A DNA stretch of 35,711 bases from Candidatus Melainabacteria bacterium (GCA_016178265.1 JACOTS010000134.1:1-35711), one strand, 5' to 3'; counted from the stretch's first letter, positions 4,143-31,474 are shown. The notes: generated by a model not told the origin, from the letters alone. Numbers and translations: made by a program.

Positions 4143-4204
4143 ATGAAAATATTTTAATTATACTTTTTATGAGGAATAGATGCGGTACCAAGTTAAAGGA
4201 AAAA

Positions 4205-4286
4205 TAAGCTTTTTGTCCGATTTATTCGGCAAAAAGCGTCGAGGATAAGGAGCGAGTTGAGCGTTAGCGCGAAACGAGCGTTATAG
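4205..4286 (+). repeat. two-hairpin GA-tandem element, copy A (5' of nanE)
   Basis: taagctttttgtccgatttattcggcaaaaagcgtcg...gcGAgttGAgcgttagcgcGAaacGAgcgttatag, immediately followed by the nanE ATG. Confidence 0.9.
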
Positions 4287-4976
4287 ATGATCGAAATTTT
4301 AAGAAATAAAGTTATTGTATCTGTTCAAGCACAGGATAATGAACCATTAAATAAACCAGAGCACCTTCTTGCAATAAGCGAATCTGTTATTAATGGAGGA
4401 GCTGGTGGGCTTAGGCTTTGTGGAGAAGGAAATATTAAGTTTATAAAGGACAAAGTTAATGTTCCAATAATTGGACTTACAAAAATACAACCAACCCCAA
4501 TAAATTTTTTAGATGTGGTTTTTATCACAACCTCATTAAAGGATGCAAGGAAACTTTTGGATTTAGGGATTGAATGCATTGCAATTGATGGAACAGGCAG
4601 ATTGCGCTTGGATGGCTCAACACTTGACGATCAAATTAAACTAATTAAAAAAGAAAAAAGACTGGTTATGGCAGATGTTGCTACTTTTGAGGATGGAATG
4701 AGTGCAGCAGAAAAAGGAGCAGATCTAATTTCTACTACCTTATCAGGTTATACAAAAGAAACTAGATATAAAGCAAATGAAGGACCGGATTTTAAGCTTT
4801 TAGAAGAACTCATGGAAGAATGTCCTGTGCCCGTGATATTAGAAGGACGTATTTGGAATCCTGAAGATGTTAAAACTGCTTTTGAAATAGGAGCTTTTGC
4901 TGTAATTATTGGTACTGCAATAACCCGTCCCCATTTAATTACAAAGAGATTTGTTAGTTTGGTGCCGCAAACTTAA
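4287..4976 (+). CDS. nanE: N-acetylmannosamine-6-phosphate 2-epimerase
   Basis: IVSVQA, VPIIGLTK, MADVAT, TTLSGYT, EGRIWNPE and GTAITRP motifs. Confidence 0.93.
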   Translation: MIEILRNKVIVSVQAQDNEPLNKPEHLLAISESVINGGAGGLRLCGEGNIKFIKDKVNVPIIGLTKIQPTPINFLDVVFITTSLKDARKLLDLGIECIAIDGTGRLRLDGSTLDDQIKLIKKEKRLVMADVATFEDGMSAAEKGADLISTTLSGYTKETRYKANEGPDFKLLEELMEECPVPVILEGRIWNPEDVKTAFEIGAFAVIIGTAITRPHLITKRFVSLVPQT

Positions 4977-13797: not shown

Positions 13798-14847
13798 ATG
13801 AAATTATTTCGCCGCTCATTGTCCATCGTTTTAATTTTTGGACTGATCTTCTGCATGGCCTTCTTATTAAATTTTACAATTGCCCAGGAAGATACTGGTT
13901 ATTATGCACCTGATTATCCAACAACAGACAGTAATCCTGGACATGTTGGTGATCATGGAGATGGTAGCGATTCAAGTCATGATGGCCGCGGTGATACTGA
14001 TACTGATGGCGGTGGTGATACTGATACTGACGGCGGTGGTGATACTGATACTGATGGTGGTGGAGGATTCCCTGGCGGAGGTGGACTTCCCGGTGGCGGT
14101 GGACTTCCCGGCGGCGGTGGATTCCCTGGCGGTGGTGGACTTCCCGGTGGCGGCGGATTACCTGGCGGCGGTGGCGGACTTCCTCCTGGCGGTGGTGGCC
14201 CAATTCCAACTGGCTGTGTAAGTGATTCAGAGTGTAGTCCAGATTGTTGTGTAACTGGTGTATGTGTACCATGTGGTGGACCTGGAGGTACTGGTCCTAG
14301 TGGACCAACTTGTGGAGATGGAATTTGTGAATCAGGAGAAGATGCAACCATGTGCCCAGGTGATTGTGAGACCTGTGGAAACGGATCATGCGGACCTGCT
14401 GAAAACCCGTGTACTTGTGAAGCTGATTGTGGATCTCCTTGCAGTACTGTAAGCGCAGGGACATGCGATCCTTCTACTTGCACAGGTTGTAATGAATGTC
14501 AGACTGTAGATTATCCTGATGCGTGTGGTGGTACATGTCCTATGCAACAATGTGTACCTATTACCCCACCAGCTTGTGGAGGCGGTGATTATAATACCTG
14601 CACAACAGAAACATTAGATTATACTACGTGTACTTGTGTATCTAATACTTATGGAACCCCTGAAACTTGTCCAAATGGTACAACATGTTGCTCAGCAGGT
14701 GGTGTAAGTTGTTGTCCTTCAGATCCTGTTACTACCTCTGGTGGATTTGGAACACAAGGAGGAGGCGGCGGTGGCGATCCTTGTGCAAGCGTATGTTCCG
14801 GAAGTGCATTTAGTAGAGCATGTCAAAGGTGCCTTGCTGCTCCATAG
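13798..14847 (+). CDS. secreted Gly/Pro-repeat, Cys-rich protein
   Basis: signal peptide; AAGGAG RBS; CGDGICESGE..CPGDC motif resembling myxobacterial Cys-rich repeats. Confidence 0.8.
   Translation: MKLFRRSLSIVLIFGLIFCMAFLLNFTIAQEDTGYYAPDYPTTDSNPGHVGDHGDGSDSSHDGRGDTDTDGGGDTDTDGGGDTDTDGGGGFPGGGGLPGGGGLPGGGGFPGGGGLPGGGGLPGGGGGLPPGGGGPIPTGCVSDSECSPDCCVTGVCVPCGGPGGTGPSGPTCGDGICESGEDATMCPGDCETCGNGSCGPAENPCTCEADCGSPCSTVSAGTCDPSTCTGCNECQTVDYPDACGGTCPMQQCVPITPPACGGGDYNTCTTETLDYTTCTCVSNTYGTPETCPNGTTCCSAGGVSCCPSDPVTTSGGFGTQGGGGGGDPCASVCSGSAFSRACQRCLAAP
13990..14199 (+). repeat. coding tandem repeats (GDTDTDG x3; GGG[FL]PG x~6)
   Basis: 21-bp and 18-bp tandem units visible in the DNA. Confidence 0.85.
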
Positions 14848-20861: not shown

Positions 20862-21110
20862 ATGAAAGCTGTATTGTTGGCTTTAATTGTGTGCATGGGG
20901 CCTTACTCCTGTTCTTATGCTGCTACAGAGGACTCCTTAACAGGTTTTGTTAATAATTCTTTGCAAGGAATCACAGGAAGTGTAACATTTGAAAATACTG
21001 ATTCTGCAACAGAAGGAGCATACGAATATTTTCTTAATGATTATCATTATCTAGACAGTGATGTTAAGTTGGATCTAGATCCCGCTTCTACAGAGAATTA
21101 CCCAAAATAG
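20862..21110 (+). CDS. small secreted hypothetical protein
   Basis: MKAVLLALIVC..SYA signal-like N-terminus. Confidence 0.6.
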   Translation: MKAVLLALIVCMGPYSCSYAATEDSLTGFVNNSLQGITGSVTFENTDSATEGAYEYFLNDYHYLDSDVKLDLDPASTENYPK

Positions 21111-21111
21111 C

Positions 21112-21159
21112 TTATTTCTTCTTTCCAGTGATTATGGGTTCTGCTACGCTAGCTGGGAC
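21112..21159 (-). pseudogene. displaced duplicate of the fusA 3' end ([15 protein letters not shown])
   Basis: 48 bp encoding the same 15 aa plus stop as 21246-21293, with 8 third-position differences. Confidence 0.95.
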
Positions 21160-21248
21160 CTTGTTTTTATACCGCTCGCCTCGTGCGAACACTCGGCTCG
21201 CTTGTAAAGTCACGACGCATTTTGCCAAGTGAATTGGACAAAATGCTA
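21160..21248 (-). repeat. two-hairpin GA-tandem element, copy B (3' of fusA)
   Basis: minus strand TAGcattttgtccaattcacttggcaaaatgcgtcg...gcGAgccGAgtgttcgcacGAggcGAgcggtataaaaacaa. Confidence 0.9.
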
Positions 21249-23324
21249 TTTCTTTTTGCCAGTTATAATAGGCTCAGCTACGCTAGCTGGGACTTCTTCG
21301 TATGCGGCAAATTCCATAGTAAATGTCCCTTGACCTTTGGTTCTATTTCTTATGTCTGTTGCATATCCAAACATTTCAGATAAAGGCACCTTGCCGTTTA
21401 CTTTTGAAAGTCCTCTTTCTGTAGTCATTCCTTCAACACGTCCGCGCCTTGAAGAAACATCCCCAATCACATCACCCATAAACTCTTCCGGGACCTCAAT
21501 TTCAAGATTCATTACAGGTTCCAAAAGAGTTGGTTTTGCTTTCATAAAACCTTCTTTAAATGCCATAGAACCTGCAATCTGAAATGCCATATCTGAAGAA
21601 TCTACATCATGGAAACTTCCATCATGAAGTGTAATTCTAAGATCAATTACAGGATACCCTGCAAGCACCCCACCTGCCATAGCTTCTTTAACTCCTTTTT
21701 CAACCGCAGGAATATATTCTTTTGGAATAATACCACCTACAATTTTGTTTACAAACTCAAATCCTGAGCTTCTTTCAAGCGGTTCCACGTCAATAACAAC
21801 GTGACCATATTGACCACGACCGCCAGATTGCCTGATATATTTTCCTTCTTGAGTAACTCTGGCTTTGCAGGTTTCACGGTATGCAACTTGTGGTTTACCT
21901 ACATTAGCCTCCACTTTAAACTCTCTTAAGAGCCTATCTACAAGAATTTCAAGATGAAGTTCTCCCATTCCTGAAATAATTGTTTGCCCTGTTTCATGAT
22001 CCACATGCACTTTAAAGGTAGGATCTTCTTCTGCAAGTTTTTGAAGTGAAAGCCCAATTTTTTCTTGATCTGCCTTTGTTTTTGGTTCAATTGCAACCGA
22101 TATAACAGGATCAGGGATATGAAGAGACTCAAGAATAATTGGCTTTTTCTCATCGCAAAGAGTATCTCCTGTAGAGGTATCTTTTAAACCAACTACAGCA
22201 CAAATATCTCCTGCATATACTTCGTCTACTTCTTTTCTATCATCAGCCTGTAGTTTTACTATACGACTAATTCTTTCTTTTGCGTCCTTGCTTGCATTAT
22301 AAATATAGCTTCCTGCCTTCAGGCAACCGCTATATACCCTAATAAAGGTCAGTCTTCCAACAAAAGGATCTGTCATTATTTTAAATGCAAGTGCTGCAAA
22401 AGGTTCATTATCATCTGACTTACGTTGTATTTCAGATCCATCTTTTAAAATCCCTTTTATAGCTTCAACCTCAGTTGGGTTTGGCAAGTAATCTACTACT
22501 GCATCAAGAAGCTGTTGAACACCTTTATTTTTAAAAGCAGATCCACATGTAATTGGAATTATCTGTAATTTGCATACAGCATTGTGAAGTGCTTGCTTGA
22601 GCTCAGGAACAGGAATTTCTTTACCCTCTAAATATCTGCTCATTAAATCATCATTGGTTTCAACTATGGCTTCTACAAGTTTTTCTCTTAATTCTTTTGC
22701 TTTGTCCATAAGCTCAGTAGGAACATCAACCGTGTCAAATTTTCTTCCCATCTTATCGGTTTCATCGTAGATGTATGCTTCCATCTCAAGAAGGTTTACG
22801 ACACCTTTTAACTGATCTTCAGATCCTACCGGGATTTGAATTGGGTGTGCATTGACTTTAATTTCATTAATTACTTGACTTACAACCTTGAAAAAGTCGG
22901 CACCTGTTCTATCCAATTTGTTTACAAAAATAATCCTAGGTACTTTATATCTGTCAGCTTGTTTCCAAACAGTTTTTGTTTGAGGTTGTACCCCGCCTAC
23001 GCCGCAAAGAACAATTACAACGCCGTCAAGCACTCTCATAGAACGCTCAACTTCAATGGTAAAGTCAACGTGACCAGGGGTATCAATTAAGTTTATATAC
23101 TTATCTTTCCATGTGGTTGAAATAGCTGCAGCAGTTATGGTAATTCCTCTTTCTTTTTCTTGTGCCATCCAGTCTGTAACTGTAGTACCTTCATGGACCT
23201 CGCCAATCTTATGAACAAGTCCTGAGTAAAATAAAAACCTTTCTGTGGTTGTGGTCTTTCCTGCATCAATATGAGCAGCAATTCCCATGTTAATTGTTTT
23301 ATCTAATGGTATTTGACGTGGCAC
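21246..23324 (-). CDS. fusA: elongation factor G
   Basis: [26 protein letters not shown] and GMGELHL motifs; GTG start with AAGGAG RBS. Confidence 0.98.
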
Positions 23325-23337
23325 AATGATCTCCTTT

Positions 23338-23425
23338 TTGTTTTTATAACGCTCGTTTCGCGCGAACGCTCAACTTGCTTTTCCCCTTCGACGCTTTTTG
23401 CTGAGTAAATCAGACAAAAAGCTTA
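23338..23425 (-). repeat. two-hairpin GA-tandem element, copy C (5' of fusA)
   Basis: minus strand taagctttttgtctgatttactcagcaaaaagcgtcg...gcAAgttGAgcgttcgcgcGAaacGAgcgttataaaaacaa, followed by the RBS. Confidence 0.9.
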
Positions 23426-23515
23426 GCTTTATAATAGGATACGGTATAACCCAATAAGTTTCCAAGATATTTTAAATTCTTTTAACATTAGAGATAGCAA
23501 ATAGCATTTAACTAT

Positions 23516-24424
23516 GTGCTATACGATATTATTATAGAAGTGTTTTTTGACTTCTTACAACTGCTTTTGCACTATGGAATAACCATAATTCCTGCCTTTT
23601 TAGTAGCTCTTTTAATCTCAGCAATACTTGTAGAGTTTATACCAGAATGGGTTTATGAACGAATATTAGGGTCAAACCAATTTTTATTTATTTTGCTTGC
23701 AAGTTTTGTCGGAGCATTAATACCTATATGTACATGTGGGATGATCCCACTTGCTGGAAAATTGCATAAAAAAGGAGCTTCGTGGCTTATAGTAGTTGCA
23801 TTTTTAACAGCAGGCAATGCAAGTAGTATAACTTCATTAATTATGACCCTTGTAATGGGCACAGGAATTACATTTGGGAGGTTTGTTTTTGCAGTAATTT
23901 TTGGGCTTTTAGTTTCTTATATTTTTGTATTAATTTTTAAACCTAAAAGTTTGTTGTCAGAAAATGGTGGGCATTCTGATAATATAACAATTTCTAAAAA
24001 GGAAAAAATCACAAATGAGTTTGTAATCCTTGTAAAAAACTTTGGACCATGGGTGATTGCTGCTGTACTTATTGCAGCTTTTATCTCGCTCTTTTTGTCA
24101 TATGAATTTGTAGTTAGCTTTGCAGGGGTTGGAAATACTTTTGCCCCGTTTGTGTTTGGTGTAGTTGGGTTCCCTTTTTATTTTTGCGCAGGAGCAGATA
24201 TTCCAATTAGTAGTGCACTACTGGCAAAAGGTGCAGGGCTTGGAAGCATTTTATCCTTCATGACTGCCTCACCAGGGGTTAATCTTACAACTCTTCTTAT
24301 TTATCAAAAATGGCTTGGGCTTAAAAACTCTATTATTTATTTAATTATTTCTGTTTTGATTTGTGGAATACTTGGAATGAGAGTTAACTTTTTTATGCTT
24401 CCAATTTCGCCATATCCGTTTTAG
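23516..24424 (+). CDS. DUF318/ArsP family permease
   Basis: multiple TM helices; PICTCGMIP and YFCAGADIP motifs. Confidence 0.85.
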   Translation: MLYDIIIEVFFDFLQLLLHYGITIIPAFLVALLISAILVEFIPEWVYERILGSNQFLFILLASFVGALIPICTCGMIPLAGKLHKKGASWLIVVAFLTAGNASSITSLIMTLVMGTGITFGRFVFAVIFGLLVSYIFVLIFKPKSLLSENGGHSDNITISKKEKITNEFVILVKNFGPWVIAAVLIAAFISLFLSYEFVVSFAGVGNTFAPFVFGVVGFPFYFCAGADIPISSALLAKGAGLGSILSFMTASPGVNLTTLLIYQKWLGLKNSIIYLIISVLICGILGMRVNFFMLPISPYPF

Positions 24425-25143
24425 AGGGAGAACACGAGATCAAATGTTTTAATCTCTTTCTTTGCTCTTGTATTTATGTGCTTTTGCAGTAATTTAAGAG
24501 CTCCTCTTTTTGTTTCCATATCGCTATTTGTTTGTATAGTAGGTAAGCCAAGTATATCTAATATTCCATTGGAAATTGATATATGATCAATAGCAAGGCA
24601 TTCATCGCATAAAAGTCCACCAAGGATACTTGAGTAGGGGTAAGTATCCTTGCTTTTAACGATTTCCTTGCTACATGCTACACAGGTTTCAAGCTGTGGT
24701 TTTAGTCCATGAAGGGACAAAAATTGAATAATAAATCTTATAGCTACTGTTTCGGGGGATTTGCTTGTTTGCAATTCATCAAGCATTGAATAAAGAAGTT
24801 CAAAGATATGATTGCTTTCTTCTTCTTCTTCTTGTGCAAAATTGTTAACTATATCCAAAAATAAAATTCCGTAAAATAAAAGATTAGAGCTAGATCTTAG
24901 TTTTGGAAAAGTAGTTATTTGTTCAATGTCACAAAGAGTGTCTAAATTTTTCCCTTTGGCAAATTGAAAAAAAGAGCAATACAAGAGGTCTGTTCTACCA
25001 GAAAATTTCCCACTTGGCTTTTTAGCTCCTTTTGCAATACACCTTACTAAACCGTTTTCTTTGGTATATATGTTAAGTATTTTATCTGCTTCAGATAAGT
25101 TAAAACTTTTTAAGATAATGCCTTGATCATTGTATGAGGGCAT
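24421..25143 (-). CDS. recO: DNA repair protein RecO
   Basis: GIILKS..LSEADKIL, AKGAKK and CxxC...CxxC zinc motifs; ATG 25143 preferred over GTG 25173. Confidence 0.92.
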   Translation of the reverse strand: MPSYNDQGIILKSFNLSEADKILNIYTKENGLVRCIAKGAKKPSGKFSGRTDLLYCSFFQFAKGKNLDTLCDIEQITTFPKLRSSSNLLFYGILFLDIVNNFAQEEEEESNHIFELLYSMLDELQTSKSPETVAIRFIIQFLSLHGLKPQLETCVACSKEIVKSKDTYPYSSILGGLLCDECLAIDHISISNGILDILGLPTIQTNSDMETKRGALKLLQKHINTRAKKEIKTFDLVFSL

Positions 25144-25297
25144 GAATGTAAAGACCAAAAAAAATGCTATCACTTAGAATTTTAAGAGACTTTTACATAT
25201 TTTGCGTTAAAATATAAAGCTTTGATTAATTTAATTCCTAAATAGCCAATAAGTGATTGTAGGATGGTAAGTTGGTTATTATCTAGCTGAGATGGAG

Positions 25298-25335
25298 GAG
25301 CGAGTCGAGTGTTCGCACGAGACGAGCGATTATAA
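25298..25335 (+). repeat. GA-tandem element, copy D (hairpin 2 only, 5' of HTH gene)
   Basis: gagcGAgtcGAgtgttcgcacGAgacGAgcgattataa directly before the ATG. Confidence 0.85.
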
Positions 25336-25662
25336 ATGACAAGTGAAAGAGAAGTTGTTAGGCAAGATGTTCCTCAAGAAGTAGAAGCAGACTTAACTGA
25401 TGAGACAAGAGTTGCTCTAGCACTTTATTTAAAAGTATATTCTGAAGGAAAAGTTACCCCGCAAGGCATTATAGTGCCTGAGTTAAATATTCATAAGCTG
25501 GCACATGCTGCAGAAGTTCCAAACAGGCAAGTAAGCAAAACTTTTGAAAGACTTAGAGGAAAAGGATTTTTAGGAAACCTTCCTTCAGGGCATCTTGTTG
25601 TCAAAAACCTAGAAGAGTTTCAACAATGGTTAGTTAGCCAAGGCGCATCAATTGATGTGTAA
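25336..25662 (+). CDS. small winged-HTH (Crp-type) DNA-binding protein
   Basis: LNIHKLAHAAEVPNRQVSKTFERLRGKGFL..LVVKNLEE resembles a Crp C-terminal HTH. Confidence 0.65.
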   Translation: MTSEREVVRQDVPQEVEADLTDETRVALALYLKVYSEGKVTPQGIIVPELNIHKLAHAAEVPNRQVSKTFERLRGKGFLGNLPSGHLVVKNLEEFQQWLVSQGASIDV

Positions 25663-25745
25663 GCTTTTGTCCAACTTGTTTGGCAAAAGCGTCGAGGATC
25701 AAAGAAGCGAGTTGAGTGTTCGCACGAAACGAGCGGTATAAAAGT
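25660..25745 (+). repeat. two-hairpin GA-tandem element, copy E (3' of HTH gene)
   Basis: TAAgcttttgtccaacttgtttggcaaaagcgtcg...gcGAgttGAgtgttcgcacGAaacGAgcggtataa. Confidence 0.9.
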
Positions 25746-25804
25746 AGTTTCAACAATGGTTAGTTAGCCAAGGCGCATCAATTGACGTTTAAGCTTTTGT
25801 CCAA
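25746..25804 (+). pseudogene. duplicate of the HTH gene 3' end plus the start of another element copy
   Basis: 59-bp direct repeat of 25616-25674 with 2 synonymous differences. Confidence 0.93.
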
Positions 25805-25813
25805 ATTAAAAAA

Positions 25814-26038
25814 CTATTCTGCTGCTTCTTCTTCTCGAGGTACGCATGTACCGTAATCAGTACCTTCTTCTATTTCACATTCAAATTTATCAGGATTACA
25901 ACAAGGATCCCAACTAGGTGGATCTCCGCATACGCCTCCTTCAACAGCACAAGAGCAAAGCCCATTTTGAATTGGCAGTGCGGCCAGGCAAAAGGCAAGA
26001 GGTATAAGGACTATTAGTTTCTTTATAAAATTGTTCAT
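25814..26038 (-). CDS. small secreted Cys-rich (knottin-like) peptide
   Basis: signal peptide followed by C-X6-C-X8-CC-X6-C-X10-C. Confidence 0.7.
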   Translation of the reverse strand: MNNFIKKLIVLIPLAFCLAALPIQNGLCSCAVEGGVCGDPPSWDPCCNPDKFECEIEEGTDYGTCVPREEEAAE

Positions 26039-26197
26039 AAGTTTCCTACAGAGTTTTACAGCTAGTTATCTTATACCCACTGCCTGTGACGCAAAGCAAC
26101 AAAAATCCTAATATGAGTTATTTTTAACCTAAATTCCTCTATTTACAGTACCTGTTTAAATTGAAGTTAACATTGAATTCTAAGGGGAATCCCTATG

Positions 26198-27259
26198 TCA
26201 GGCTATGACAGAGGTATTGAAAAGTTCTTTTATTTCTTTTTTATAGTCCCCTTCAACTATCCCTTTTTCTGTGATTATGCCTTTAATATATTCTCTAGAG
26301 GTAATGTCAAAAGCAGGATTAAAAGCCTGTGTAGAAGGGTGGCATATTAATCCTTCATTAATTAGTGTTACTTCCTTTTCATCTCTATTTTCAATAGGAA
26401 TTTTGTCTCCTGTTTCAATACTTAAATCAAAAGTGGAAAGAGGTGCTGCTATATAAAATGGTATGTTGTTTTCTTTTGCAAGTACTGCAAGTTGGTAGGT
26501 ACCTATTTTATTTGCTGTATCACCGTTGCTTGCAATTCTATCTGCTCCAGCAATAACAATATCAATAAATCCTTTTTTCATAAGGTATCCGCAAGCAGTA
26601 TCTGAAATTAATGTGCAATTTATTCCATTTTCAATACACTCGAAAGTTGTTAATTTGGCCCCTTGTTGTCTGGGCCTGGTTTCGCTTGCAAAAACTTTTA
26701 TTGATGGATCATATTGATGTGCAGTTAAAATAATCCCAAAAGCTGTTCCAATGCCTCCGGTTGCAAGTGCCCCTGTATTGCAGATAGTAAGAATACCTGC
26801 TCCTTTTGGAATAACTTTAGAACCATATCTGCCTATATTTGCACACCTTTGCGCATCATCTTCATGAATCCAAATAGCACGTTTTTTTAAGGCAGTAATT
26901 ATTTCAAGTGTGTCATCTAACGAGGCAACTTCATGTAACATTAAATCTACTGCCCATCTCAAGTTAATTGCGGTTGGCCTTGCGTTTTTAATTTCCTCAC
27001 CAATTGCTTTAAGTTTATTGATTAACTTTTTACCTTCAAGTTTTTTGTATTCAAGTGCTGCAAGAAATATGCCATATGCAGCAGCAATTCCTATTAAAGG
27101 AGCACCCCTTACAGACATATTTTTAATTGCACGGGTAACTTCGGTATAAGACCTTGCTTTTATGTACTTTTTAGATAACGGTAATACTCTTTGATCAAGC
27201 AAAGATAATTCATCGTTTTCTAACTTAATAGGTTGAATCTTAGAATTTATCTTTTGCAT
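26198..27259 (-). CDS. mtnA: S-methyl-5-thioribose-1-phosphate isomerase
   Basis: LDQR, VRGAPLIG, RPTAINL, CNTGALAT, ETRP, GADRI and ANKIGTY motifs. Confidence 0.95.
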   Translation of the reverse strand: MQKINSKIQPIKLENDELSLLDQRVLPLSKKYIKARSYTEVTRAIKNMSVRGAPLIGIAAAYGIFLAALEYKKLEGKKLINKLKAIGEEIKNARPTAINLRWAVDLMLHEVASLDDTLEIITALKKRAIWIHEDDAQRCANIGRYGSKVIPKGAGILTICNTGALATGGIGTAFGIILTAHQYDPSIKVFASETRPRQQGAKLTTFECIENGINCTLISDTACGYLMKKGFIDIVIAGADRIASNGDTANKIGTYQLAVLAKENNIPFYIAAPLSTFDLSIETGDKIPIENRDEKEVTLINEGLICHPSTQAFNPAFDITSREYIKGIITEKGIVEGDYKKEIKELFNTSVIA

Positions 27260-28860: not shown

Positions 28861-28966
28861 TAAGGTTTTATCCGATTTATTCGGTAAAATCTTGATAGCA
28901 ATGTTAAGAAGTAGCTAATATATGCACTTTGCAAAACCGGCGAAGCCCATTCGTGGGCGAGCCGGT
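28861..28966 (+). repeat. variant element copy F (hairpin 1 plus a different GA/TTCG hairpin)
   Basis: taaggttttatccgatttattcggtaaaatct and accggcGAAgcccaTTCGtgggcGAgccggt. Confidence 0.7.
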
Positions 28967-31177: not shown

Positions 31178-31474
31178 ATGTTTAATAAGATAAGGATATT
31201 ATTTTACTCACTAGCTCTTATTGTTTTTATGACAGCATGTGCTGCACCAAAGCCAGCTGAAGAAGTAGATGAGCTAGAAGAAGAGTTTGAAGAAGTTCAA
31301 GAAGAAGACGAAACAGAGGAAGCAGTAGAAGAAGCTACAGAAGAAGCACCTGCTGAAACTCCAGCTGAAGCGCCCGCAGCACCAGCTGAAGAAAAAGCAA
31401 TGACTGATTCTGGAGCACAAGGTGAAGCAGAAGAAGCTACAGCACCTGAAACTGAAGAAACAACAGAAGAATAA
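31178..31474 (+). CDS. acidic low-complexity lipoprotein
   Basis: lipobox MTAC; Glu/Ala-rich; GGAGG RBS. Confidence 0.75.
   Translation: MFNKIRILFYSLALIVFMTACAAPKPAEEVDELEEEFEEVQEEDETEEAVEEATEEAPAETPAEAPAAPAEEKAMTDSGAQGEAEEATAPETEETTEE

What the first reader, a model, noticed from the sequence alone, without database searches (positions are those of the whole stretch)
25616..25804. HTH gene 3' end duplicated around element E, with the repeat extending into a further truncated element
25616-25674 is repeated at 25746-25804 (period 130 bp). The only two differences are synonymous (GAT/GAC, GTG/GTT). The distal copy is also followed by gcttttgtccaa, the start of the element, so the older end already carried an element. 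This points to repeated rounds of the same event. The period is close to the 134 bp seen at fusA.
Basis: partly seen in the sequence, partly recalled or inferred. Interest (0 to 1): 0.72.

Follow-up and report, generated by a model that had tools for sequence, protein, structure and literature searches.

The report
Spare gene ends flanking a small repeat
A real 130-base duplication leaves a spare copy of a gene's last 15 codons behind a small two-hairpin repeat, and the same layout recurs at other conserved genes and tRNAs in related bacteria, with the spare copies still spelling the same amino acids.

Summary
25616-25677 recurs at 25746-25807 (62 nt, 3 differences, period 130). An independent metagenome contig (L106) and the unitig depths of the source run both show it, so it is not an assembly error.

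Element E is an ORF-less repeat of about 83 nt with two covarying hairpins. The genome holds at least 71 copies, and the element was found only in this family of Melainabacteria-labelled genomes.

The layout [gene 3' end + stop]-E-[copy of that end] is recurrent. In this genome it occurs at the HTH-like ORF, fusA, clpC, glmS and tRNA-Arg. In other genera it occurs at fusA (two), glmS, an SDR gene, tRNA-Thr and the same HTH-like ORF. One junction always lies at the element's A-rich 3' tail.

All 30 differences between proximal and distal coding copies at seven loci are third-position and synonymous. Neutral decay does not predict this.

At this locus the distal 'truncated element' is a decayed older copy. 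The two differences arose later, in the functional copy.

Best reading: an element-linked local duplication whose spare ends are kept coding by recombination with intact alleles. The main rival is an imported cassette carrying a surrogate gene end. No mobilising enzyme was found. This is a new variant of known kinds.

The parts
25295..25335 (+). Half copy of element E (second hairpin, CGAGCG, tail ATTATAA) ending directly at the ATG of the ORF
   Evidence: L106 has a full element-linker-element dimer here, about 200 nt longer.
25336..25662 (+).
   Evidence: No Pfam family. Weak ArsR/SmtB-like NCBIfam hit below cut-off.
25616..25662 (+). Proximal copy A: last 47 nt of the ORF including the stop TAA (25660-25662). 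This is the functional gene end.
25663..25745 (+). Element E. Hairpin 1 at 25663-25690 (left arm 25663-25674, loop 25675-25678). Spacer GTCGAGGATC... at 25691-25711. Hairpin 2 at 25712-25729 (tandem G.A pairs, TTCG loop). CGAGCG at 25730-25735. A-rich tail GTATAAAAGT at 25736-25745.
25746..25792 (+). Distal copy A': spare copy of the last 47 nt plus TAA. No in-frame start codon; a TAG stands in frame just before it.
25793..25813 (+). Relic of an older element: left arm of hairpin 1 (25793-25804) joined to a tail remnant ATTAAAAAA (25805-13)
   Evidence: A contig in run X3 reads hairpin 1 + GATTGCGGT + ATTAAAAAAC, i.e. GCGGT-tail as in intact elements (one 89-nt contig, weak).
25814..26038 (-). 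Convergent 74-aa Cys-rich ORF with a signal-like N-terminus. In most relatives its stop lies a few bases from the stop of the 108-aa ORF.
21246..23324 (-). fusA (EF-G). Its last 48 nt (21246-21293) form the proximal copy of the second case in the window.
21160..21245 (-). Element E after fusA
21112..21159 (-). Distal copy of the fusA end (15 codons + stop). It has 8 differences from the proximal copy, all third-position synonymous (the stop changes TAG to TAA).
23338..23425 (-). Element E upstream of fusA. Only this copy and the copy after fusA share the tail TATAAAAACAA.
4208..4287 (+). Element E ending at the ATG of the ORF at 4288. It lies downstream of a -10-like ATTATACT that relatives also have before this gene, so it probably sits in the transcribed leader.

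Best explanation
The 130-bp repeat is a real duplication linked to the element.

Element E is a small ORF-less repeat with two hairpins. It often sits just upstream of a start codon or tRNA, and in part of the copies directly after the stop codon of the preceding gene.

At this locus the ancestral state was the 108-aa ORF followed by one element that abutted the convergent gene. Before this genome and the L106 strain split, the unit [last 47 nt + stop + element] was laid down a second time. The new junction joined the element's A-rich tail (TATAAAAGT) to a purine-rich site in the gene (TAGAAG|AGTTTC).

The proximal copy finishes the gene. The distal copy is a displaced spare. The element behind the spare then decayed by internal deletion, differently in each strain.

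The likely mechanism is inferred, not shown. It is template switching or illegitimate recombination during replication at the hairpin-rich element, without a dedicated enzyme.

The spare ends keep their coding sense across the family. The inferred reason is that they are repeatedly exchanged by homologous recombination with intact alleles of the same gene in genomes that lack the insertion.

Shown: the anatomy, the recurrence, the junction position and the synonymous-only divergence. Inferred: the order of events, the template switch and the recombinational refreshing.
For: Reality of the repeat.

Element family:
- 71 core matches in the 1.87-Mb genome.
- Hairpin 2 covaries in 70 copies: the four variable pairs form standard pairs in 65/70, 65/70, 70/70 and 68/70, each with 2-3 pair types. 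Hairpin 1 is stable in 66/70.
- A same-strand ORF of 60 aa or more starts within 60 nt in 34/71 copies, mostly 5-10 nt after CGAGCG.

Association with the element:
- 3 of 71 copies have a flanking duplication of the upstream gene end (scores 68, 55, 36; next best 22).
- In an unconditional self-BLAST, the five non-coding short-range duplications that hold a gene end or tRNA end (HTH-like ORF, fusA, clpC, glmS, tRNA-Arg) all bracket an E-type element.

The junction lies at the element tail in all of them.

Ancestral state: none of the 11 same-family genomes has an element or duplication after this ORF, and 15 of 17 metagenome loci have none.

Decay of the distal element differs between strains:
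- This genome keeps the left arm plus the tail.
- L106 keeps only 38 nt of A', followed by unrelated sequence.
- A contig in X3 has hairpin 1 joined to GCGGT-tail.

The differences arose stepwise in the proximal copy: GACGTT, then GACGTG, then GATGTG.

Elements turn over quickly between near-identical strains. At the orthologous copy hairpin 2 reads TG..CA in one strain and CA..TG in the other, and the upstream region holds a half element in one and a dimer in the other.

No Y1 transposase or reverse transcriptase was found in the genome, which is 89.5% complete.
Against: - A plain tandem duplication of [gene end + element] cannot be general. In G010 the distal glmS copy sits in the native context, 4 nt before the next gene's ATG as in G004 and G002. 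That leaves no room for a former second element.
- Neutral decay of the spare predicts mostly non-synonymous changes. All 30 differences at seven loci are third-position synonymous. The proposed 'refreshing' is an added assumption with no direct test here.
- The same junction position recurs in different genera: glmS in G000 and G010; fusA in G001 and G008; the HTH-like ORF in G000 and L115 within 1-2 nt. This suggests either a site-specific process or spread of a ready-made cassette.
- Microhomology at the junction is modest and absent at fusA in G001 and G008.
- The 'tail relic' rests on one 89-nt contig laid at 90% likeness.
Confidence: 0.5

Rival explanations
1. Imported cassette with a surrogate gene end. 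The mobile unit is [gene 3' end + stop + element], possibly with the second copy serving as right homology arm. It enters the same conserved gene of a new host by homologous recombination or by homing. The proximal copy is then foreign and the distal copy is the displaced native end. This matches mobile endonuclease ORFs in fungal mitochondria and integrative elements that restore the gene they interrupt.
For: - Synonymous-only divergence follows at once if both copies were functional alleles in different lineages: 30/30 differences. In L115, 15 nt differences in 48 include CTC/TTG and AGT/TCA codon-family switches and only one amino-acid change.
- The same junction position occurs in different genera, with patchy presence. 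G010 has the glmS case but its congeners G005 and G011 do not.
- The distal copy lies in native context in G010.
- In L115 the distal copy is nearer than the proximal one to 6 of the 7 closest relatives' gene ends (0.79-0.81 against 0.69-0.77).
- Precedent: Glomus and Allomyces mitochondrial genes with an inserted C-terminus, a mobile ORF and a native C*-terminus, with synonymous differences (PMC3630166, passages read).
Against: - There is no ORF or nuclease in or beside the element.
- The element at fusA in this genome belongs to this genome's own subfamily (cc..gg type, also on C10, C17, C43, C56). It does not look foreign.
- At the finding's own locus the two copies differ by 2 of 47 nt, and both changes arose in situ.
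- The L115 tilt is only 2-5 nt of 48.
- G010's two glmS copies are equally far from the congeners (6-7 mismatches each; my count from the sequences).
Confidence: 0.28
2. Footprint of site-specific integration. A tyrosine recombinase integrates elements into the 3' ends of tRNA and protein genes. The duplicated end is the attL/attR identity block. E is a miniature element, or what is left of the attP arms.
For: - The targets are classic for integrases: two tRNAs duplicated from the anticodon stem to the 3' end (50 and 53 nt), and glmS.
- The left boundary is fixed within a gene across genera.
Against: - There is no integrase next to any case. The genome has only three Phage_integrase matches (C12, C140, C35:1289-1675), and the last lies 27 kb from the tRNA-Arg case.
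- Most of the 71 element copies have no flanking duplication.
- A circle of 121-189 bp is an unlikely double-stranded substrate (general knowledge).
- The repeat length is not fixed (27-77 nt).
Confidence: 0.08
3. Ordinary replication slippage that happens to include the element, with no role for the element.
For: - Short period (121-189 nt).
- A-rich partial microhomology at several junctions: TAAAAG/TAGAAG at this locus and TATATAAAA/GATATAGA at glmS.
Against: - All five non-coding gene-end or tRNA-end duplications in the genome-wide scan bracket an E-type element, which occupies about 0.3% of the genome.
- The junction is always at the element tail.
- The layout recurs in five genera.
Confidence: 0.05
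4. Assembly artefact: a collapsed or expanded repeat.
For: The genome is a draft of 184 contigs, and Logan unitigs break inside the repeat.
Against: - An independent contig, L106, has the duplication with strain-specific differences.
- The depth of the shared unitig equals the sum of the flanks, and the junction is bridged in X1 and X2.
Confidence: 0.01

Closest known systems
Mobile endonuclease ORFs with duplicated C-terminal gene ends in fungal mitochondria (Allomyces atp6; Glomus atp6, atp9, cox2, nad3)
   Same: The layout is gene core, functional 3' end, inserted element, displaced spare 3' end. Differences between the two ends are largely synonymous (PMC3630166, passages; partial C-terminal duplications of cob and atp6 in PMC6279837, passage).
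   Different: Those inserts carry a homing-endonuclease gene of about 1 kb, and HGT was inferred from relatives. Here the insert is 66-160 nt with no ORF, belongs to a 70-copy intergenic repeat family, and occurs in bacteria.
attL/attR repeats of integrative elements in the 3' ends of tRNA and protein genes, and their integrase-less remnants
   Same: A direct repeat made of the target's 3' end keeps the gene intact. tRNA repeats start at the anticodon stem.
   Different: There is no integrase and no cargo. The 'element' is a short repeat that mostly occurs without any duplication (68 of 71 copies).
REP/BIME, MIRU-like and MITE-type intergenic repeats
   Same: Small, ORF-less, multi-copy, hairpin-forming, sitting between genes. 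Tandem dimers occur (period 121-126).
   Different: No terminal inverted repeats were seen, no fixed short target duplication, and no RAYT or Y1 transposase. I did not find long codon-preserving duplications of the neighbouring gene end described for these elements (searches; review passages).

Membership tests
MITE | Terminal inverted repeats at the two ends | tested here: not met
   The element ends (5' AAGCTTTTTG..., 3' ...CGAGCGGTATAAAA) are not complementary. The inverted-repeat scan of 24500-27000 reported no pair joining them.
MITE | Short target-site duplication of fixed length | tested here: inconclusive
   Flanking repeats are absent in 68/71 copies. Where present they measure 27-77 nt. 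A 3-nt TAA repeat cannot be excluded.
REP/REPIN with RAYT | A RAYT (Y1 transposase) gene in the genome | tested here: not met
   PF01797: 0 matches in G000, which is 89.5% complete. The control genomes gave hits.
IS200/IS605-derived palindrome-associated element | Subterminal hairpins at both ends, no target duplication, TnpA in trans | tested here: inconclusive
   Two hairpins are present, the first with a conserved bulged base. TnpA was not found.
Integrative element att sites | Direct repeat equal to the 3' end of the target gene or tRNA | tested here: met
Integrative element att sites | Recombinase gene within or next to the element | tested here: not met
   The 66-160-nt inserts hold no ORF. 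The PF00589 matches lie elsewhere.
Mobile ORF with carried C-terminus (fungal mitochondria) | Endonuclease ORF between the two gene ends | tested here: not met
   No ORF lies between the copies.
Mobile ORF with carried C-terminus (fungal mitochondria) | The distal (native) end is closer to close relatives than the proximal (inserted) end | tested here: inconclusive
   In L115 this holds for 6 of the 7 nearest relatives, by 2-5 nt of 48. For G010 glmS there is no difference (from the sequences).
Simple tandem duplication | Two complete head-to-tail units | tested here: not met
   The second element is a relic in G000 and is absent in G010, G001 and G008.
Known RNA family (Rfam 15) | Match at the gathering score | tested here: not met
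   Window 20900-26100 was searched at E up to 10. The only hit over an element is a 15.6-bit hit to Clostridiales-2 (gathering score 58.6).

The most novel reading that the evidence does not exclude
E-type elements are a new kind of ORF-less bacterial mobile element. They settle in the 3' ends of conserved, often essential genes and tRNAs while supplying or generating a codon-preserving spare end. The two copies of the gene end then act as homology arms, so the cassette can be excised, re-inserted and passed between genera by the host's own recombination. This would be a nuclease-free counterpart of the C-terminus-swapping mobile ORFs of fungal mitochondria.
Probability: 0.2. Interest if true: 0.8.

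Novelty: new variant of a known kind. Interest (0 to 1): 0.6.

Why it matters
If the pattern holds, a tiny non-coding repeat repeatedly remodels the ends of core genes (EF-G, GlmS, ClpC, tRNAs) without breaking them. It leaves spare ends that stay 'in code'.

That would show a route by which selfish or regulatory repeats spread safely into gene-dense genomes that carry no transposase. It would also show a way for allele fragments of essential genes to move between lineages.

For annotation, such spare ends could be mistaken for pseudogenes or for assembly errors.

The element is also an uncharacterised structured repeat. Its hairpins covary, one has a UUCG-type loop and tandem G.A pairs, and it lies in mRNA leaders in a little-studied phylum.

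Tried and rejected
- Long target-site duplication by staggered cuts. Rejected for this locus. The proximal left arm is followed by the rest of an element while the distal left arm is followed only by a tail remnant, which is the opposite of what a cut in a resident hairpin would give. The lengths also vary from 27 to 77 nt.
- Hammerhead ribozyme reading of GAG-stem-CGAAAC. Rejected. The 'GAA' positions vary (AA, AG, GG, CA) and covary with the two bases before GAG.
- Sigma-70 promoter or intrinsic terminator reading of the element. The simple scan flags neither. The would-be -35 covaries as a stem.
- Translation of the distal copy. There is no in-frame start, and the periods (130, 134, 141...) are not in a constant frame.
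- Mini-ORF and longer diverged gene copy in L115. The alignment showed that stretch to be the element itself.
- Solo left arms as insertion targets. None were found beyond the duplication loci (noisy seeds).
- Link to phages. The only 2 matches in viral contigs are both high-GC chance hits.
- clpC in relatives. My script's stop-codon logic failed, so presence or absence there was not reliably examined.
- Longer-range (0.5-6 kb) duplications flanking an ORF. There were 46 pairs, and none was followed up as a nuclease-bearing case.
- A part of the stretch without cover in X2, X3 and X5 is not evidence of absence.

Full report
**Observation**

The window holds a direct repeat of 62 nt, 25616-25677 and 25746-25807, with 95% identity and spacing 130. 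The proximal copy contains the last 47 nt, including the stop TAA, of a 108-aa ORF at 25336-25662. The two differences inside the coding part are third-position and synonymous. After both stops comes GCTTTTGTCCAA. In the proximal copy this is the left arm of a hairpin that continues into a full element (25663-25745). In the distal copy it is followed by ATTAAAAAA and then the stop of a convergent 74-aa ORF.

**Not an artefact**

- L106, a metagenome contig 95-97% identical over the two BLAST segments that match window 24425-26516 (97% over the ORF), has the same gene end, element and second gene end.
- In run X1, which may be the source, the 40-nt unitig common to both copies has depth 14.9. 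The unitigs entering from the left and leaving to the right have depths 6.35 and 8.6.
- Unitigs bridge the junction between the element tail and the distal copy in X1 and in X2.
- These are contigs, not reads, so they show presence only.

**The element**

- A degenerate core pattern finds 71 copies in the 1.87-Mb, 184-contig genome, which is 89.5% complete.
- A copy consists of five parts:
  - hairpin 1, with a 12-bp stem, one bulged base and a 5-nt loop;
  - GTCGA plus a purine-rich spacer;
  - AGCGAG and hairpin 2 (YY-GA-G-YR-TTCG-YR-C-GA-RR);
  - CGAGCG;
  - an A-rich tail, (G)TATAAA(A).
- In 70 copies the four variable pairs of hairpin 2 form standard pairs in 65, 65, 70 and 68 cases, each with two or three pair types. 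The loop is TTCG in 51 copies and TTAG in 16. Hairpin 1 folds below -8 kcal/mol in 66 of 70.
- In 34 of 71 copies a same-strand ORF of at least 60 aa starts within 60 nt, mostly 5-10 nt after CGAGCG. Several copies end at the first base of a tRNA.
- At 4208-4287 the element lies between a -10-like box, which relatives also have before this gene, and the ATG. It is therefore probably transcribed in the leader.
- Head-to-tail dimers with period 121-126 and a purine-rich linker occur on at least five contigs.
- No Rfam family matches.
- The element was found in same-family genomes only. No genome of nine other families (0 of 29) matched the 651-nt query that contains it.
- In a scan of species-representative genomes, the low-GC matches all lay in three MAGs whose record titles read Candidatus Melainabacteria.
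- A second subfamily, here called Eb, has the same plan: AGTGAAGG-hairpin-CCGGAACGTCGT ... AGCGAAG-hairpin-GGAGCG-TATATAAAAA.

**The layout recurs**

- Conditioning on the element, 3 of 71 copies have the upstream sequence repeated downstream: this locus, fusA, and clpC on C163.
- Without conditioning, a self-BLAST for short-range direct repeats gave 27 pairs.
  - The five pairs that hold a gene end or tRNA end outside coding repeats all bracket an E-type element: the three above, the 3' 50 nt of tRNA-Arg(ACG) on C35, and the end of glmS on C74.
  - Four further pairs are element dimers.
  - The rest are coding repeats or paralogues, apart from two left unexplained (C113, C6).
- In other genera:
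  - fusA is duplicated around different element variants in G001 and G008. It is not duplicated in G002, G003, G004, G006 or G007. G005's contig ends inside the gene.
  - glmS is duplicated around Eb in G010 only, out of 11 relatives.
  - Of 16 further Eb loci fetched from G010, G001 and G008, 2 have the layout: an SDR-type gene end in G001 and the 3' 53 nt of tRNA-Thr(CGU) in G008.
  - The same 108-aa ORF has the layout around Eb in metagenome locus L115, from another genus.
- After this ORF, none of 11 family genomes and 15 of 17 metagenome loci have neither element nor duplication.

**Common features**

- One junction always joins the element's tail to a point 27-50 nt before the stop, or to the 5' side of the anticodon stem in tRNAs.
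- The periods are 121, 129, 130, 134, 135, 141, 143 and 189 for protein genes, and about 178-180 for the two tRNAs.
- In this genome the repeat runs on past the stop into the first 12-30 nt of the element. In G010, G001 and G008 it stops at or 1-2 nt after the stop codon.
- The junction position is the same in two genera for glmS (G000, G010) and for fusA (G001, G008). For the 108-aa ORF (G000, L115) it agrees within 1-2 nt.
- Partial A-rich similarity between the tail and the gene sequence left of the junction exists at several loci. Examples are TAAAAG/TAGAAG here and TATATAAAA/GATATAGA at glmS. It is lacking at fusA in G001 and G008.

**The spare ends stay in code**

- Over the whole coding part of the duplicates at seven loci with at least one difference, all 30 differences are at third codon positions and synonymous, including two stop-to-stop changes. 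There are no indels.
- The loci are fusA in G000, G001 and G008; glmS in G010; the SDR gene in G001; clpC; and this locus. The glmS copies in G000 are identical.
- If the same numbers of substitutions are placed at random, the chance that all are synonymous is 1e-5, 2.5e-4, 2.6e-4, 1.5e-4, 0.014, 0.054 and 0.25 for the single loci.
- The pairs were located in that script by their shared peptide. The limits of each duplicate had been set beforehand by nucleotide alignments. Detection by nucleotide similarity does not favour synonymous over non-synonymous change.
- The less clean case is L115. There, 12 of 16 codons differ, including CTC/TTG and AGT/TCA switches, with one amino-acid change, Q to E.
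- In fusA of this genome, half of the third positions differ while none of 32 first and second positions does. The 21 nt after the distal stop resemble the element start at only 16 of 21 positions with one gap, and they overlap the end of a convergent ORF.

**History at the finding's locus**

- Relatives show the ORF's stop a few bases from the convergent gene, so both the element and the duplication are derived.
- L106 shares the duplication but differs in three ways.
  - Its proximal end reads GACGTT, as the distal copy does here.
  - Its distal copy stops after 38 nt and is followed by 31 unrelated bases.
  - Hairpin 2 of the orthologous element reads CA..TG instead of TG..CA, which is four compensatory changes among otherwise 2 differences in the element.
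- Run X3 holds the intermediate GACGTG. It also holds one 89-nt contig that joins hairpin 1 and its spacer, through GATTGCGGT, to ATTAAAAAAC and the convergent gene. GCGGT followed by an A-rich tail is the normal end of an element, so ATTAAAAAA after the distal left arm here is best read as the tail of an older element that lost its middle.
- Three strains thus carry three different wrecks of the distal element.
- Upstream of the ORF, L106 has a full dimer where this genome has half an element. Elements are gained, converted and eroded on the time scale of about 2% sequence divergence.

**Mechanism**

- I found no Y1 transposase and no reverse transcriptase. There are only three tyrosine-recombinase matches, none beside a case. 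The element was not found in viral contigs apart from two chance hits.
- Best-supported reading: a local event linked to the element, namely template switching or illegitimate recombination whose fixed end is the element tail. The event either re-copies [gene end + element], or copies an element in from elsewhere and returns upstream of the departure point, which duplicates the gene end.
- Returns downstream would delete the neighbour's sequence and be lost, so only duplications survive.
- This accounts for the association with the element, the variable lengths, the relics and the lack of an enzyme.
- It does not by itself explain the synonymous-only divergence or the shared junction positions.
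- For those I infer exchange with intact alleles. The distal copy plus its downstream flank is homologous to element-free alleles and can be overwritten by them. An [end-element-end] segment can also enter a naive gene by ordinary double crossover, because both arms match the gene end.
- The stronger form of this idea, in which the cassette arrives from another lineage and the proximal end is foreign, is the main rival. Fungal mitochondria give a precedent (PMC3630166, passages read; PMC6279837, passage).
- The one test I could make leans that way only weakly. In L115 the distal copy is nearer to 6 of the 7 closest relatives.

**Comparison and novelty**

- The layout works like the att repeats of integrative elements and like the C-terminus swaps of mitochondrial mobile ORFs. 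The insert, however, is a 66-160-nt ORF-less member of a 70-copy structured repeat family.
- It fails the defining tests for MITE (no terminal inverted repeats), REPIN (no RAYT found) and integrative element (no recombinase).
- I found no description of such repeats in Melainabacteria or of codon-preserving gene-end duplications around small bacterial repeats. Full-text searches gave nothing relevant, and the review PMC3184786 (passages only) has nothing on it. These searches cover open-access papers only.
- I rate it a new variant of known kinds, of moderate to high interest. The anatomy and the statistics are firm. The mechanism is inferred.

Noticed in passing
window 25714-25727 against L106 (alignment A1, columns 562-569): The orthologous element copies of two strains that match at 95-97% identity differ by four compensatory changes in hairpin 2 (TG..CA against CA..TG). 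In each strain the half or full element upstream of the same ORF carries the same variant. This suggests gene conversion among element copies.
   Followed up: partly
G000 contigs C2, C31, C57, C144, C159; L106:990-1200: Head-to-tail element dimers with period 121-126 are joined by a purine-rich linker (AAGGAGATAGGAGTTAGGAAATAGGAATCAGAAAAGATCTAAG). The same linker precedes many single copies, so the full element may be about 125 nt.
   Followed up: partly
window 4180-4290: A 12-codon mini-ORF (ATGAGG...AAATAA) lies between a -10-like box and the element. Its stop overlaps the element's first bases (TAAGC).
   Followed up: no
window 28866-28889: A hairpin-1-like palindrome (TTTTATCCGATTTATTCGGTAAAA) stands alone without the second hairpin. 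Nine such solo hairpins were counted genome-wide with noisy seeds.
   Followed up: no
window 13980-14202: Tandem 18- and 24-nt repeats encode Gly-rich (GGGLP-like) and Asp/Thr-rich units inside a coding region.
   Followed up: no
window 31261-31471: A degenerate 12-39-nt repeat encodes a Glu/Ala/Thr-rich acidic low-complexity stretch.
   Followed up: no
G000 C113:1468-1655 and C6:11480-11602: Two further short-range direct repeats (36 nt with period 152; 39 nt with period 84) are not explained. The C113 insert contains a hairpin-1-like palindrome. No tRNA or Rfam family was found there.
   Followed up: partly
window 21246-26038 and relatives (G002, G003, G006, G007, G008): fusA and the 108-aa ORF lie 3-4 kb apart on the same contig in five other genera. 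The 108-aa ORF is usually followed by a convergent small Cys-rich secreted ORF. Both have no family assignment.
   Followed up: no
window 24669-24714 (-): A sub-threshold Rfam hit to ssNA-helicase RNA (20.9 bits against a gathering score of 41.5), with the UGUAGCAUGUAGCA tail intact, lies inside the recO coding region. It is probably chance.
   Followed up: no
L022, L049, L054, L096 (Melainabacteria-labelled MAG loci): Some element copies carry an extra nested hairpin (GCCGC...GGGCGG, about 40 nt) inserted before hairpin 2. In these genomes the tail is GTAGGTAGAAAC and the copies are nearly identical, as after a recent burst.
   Followed up: no
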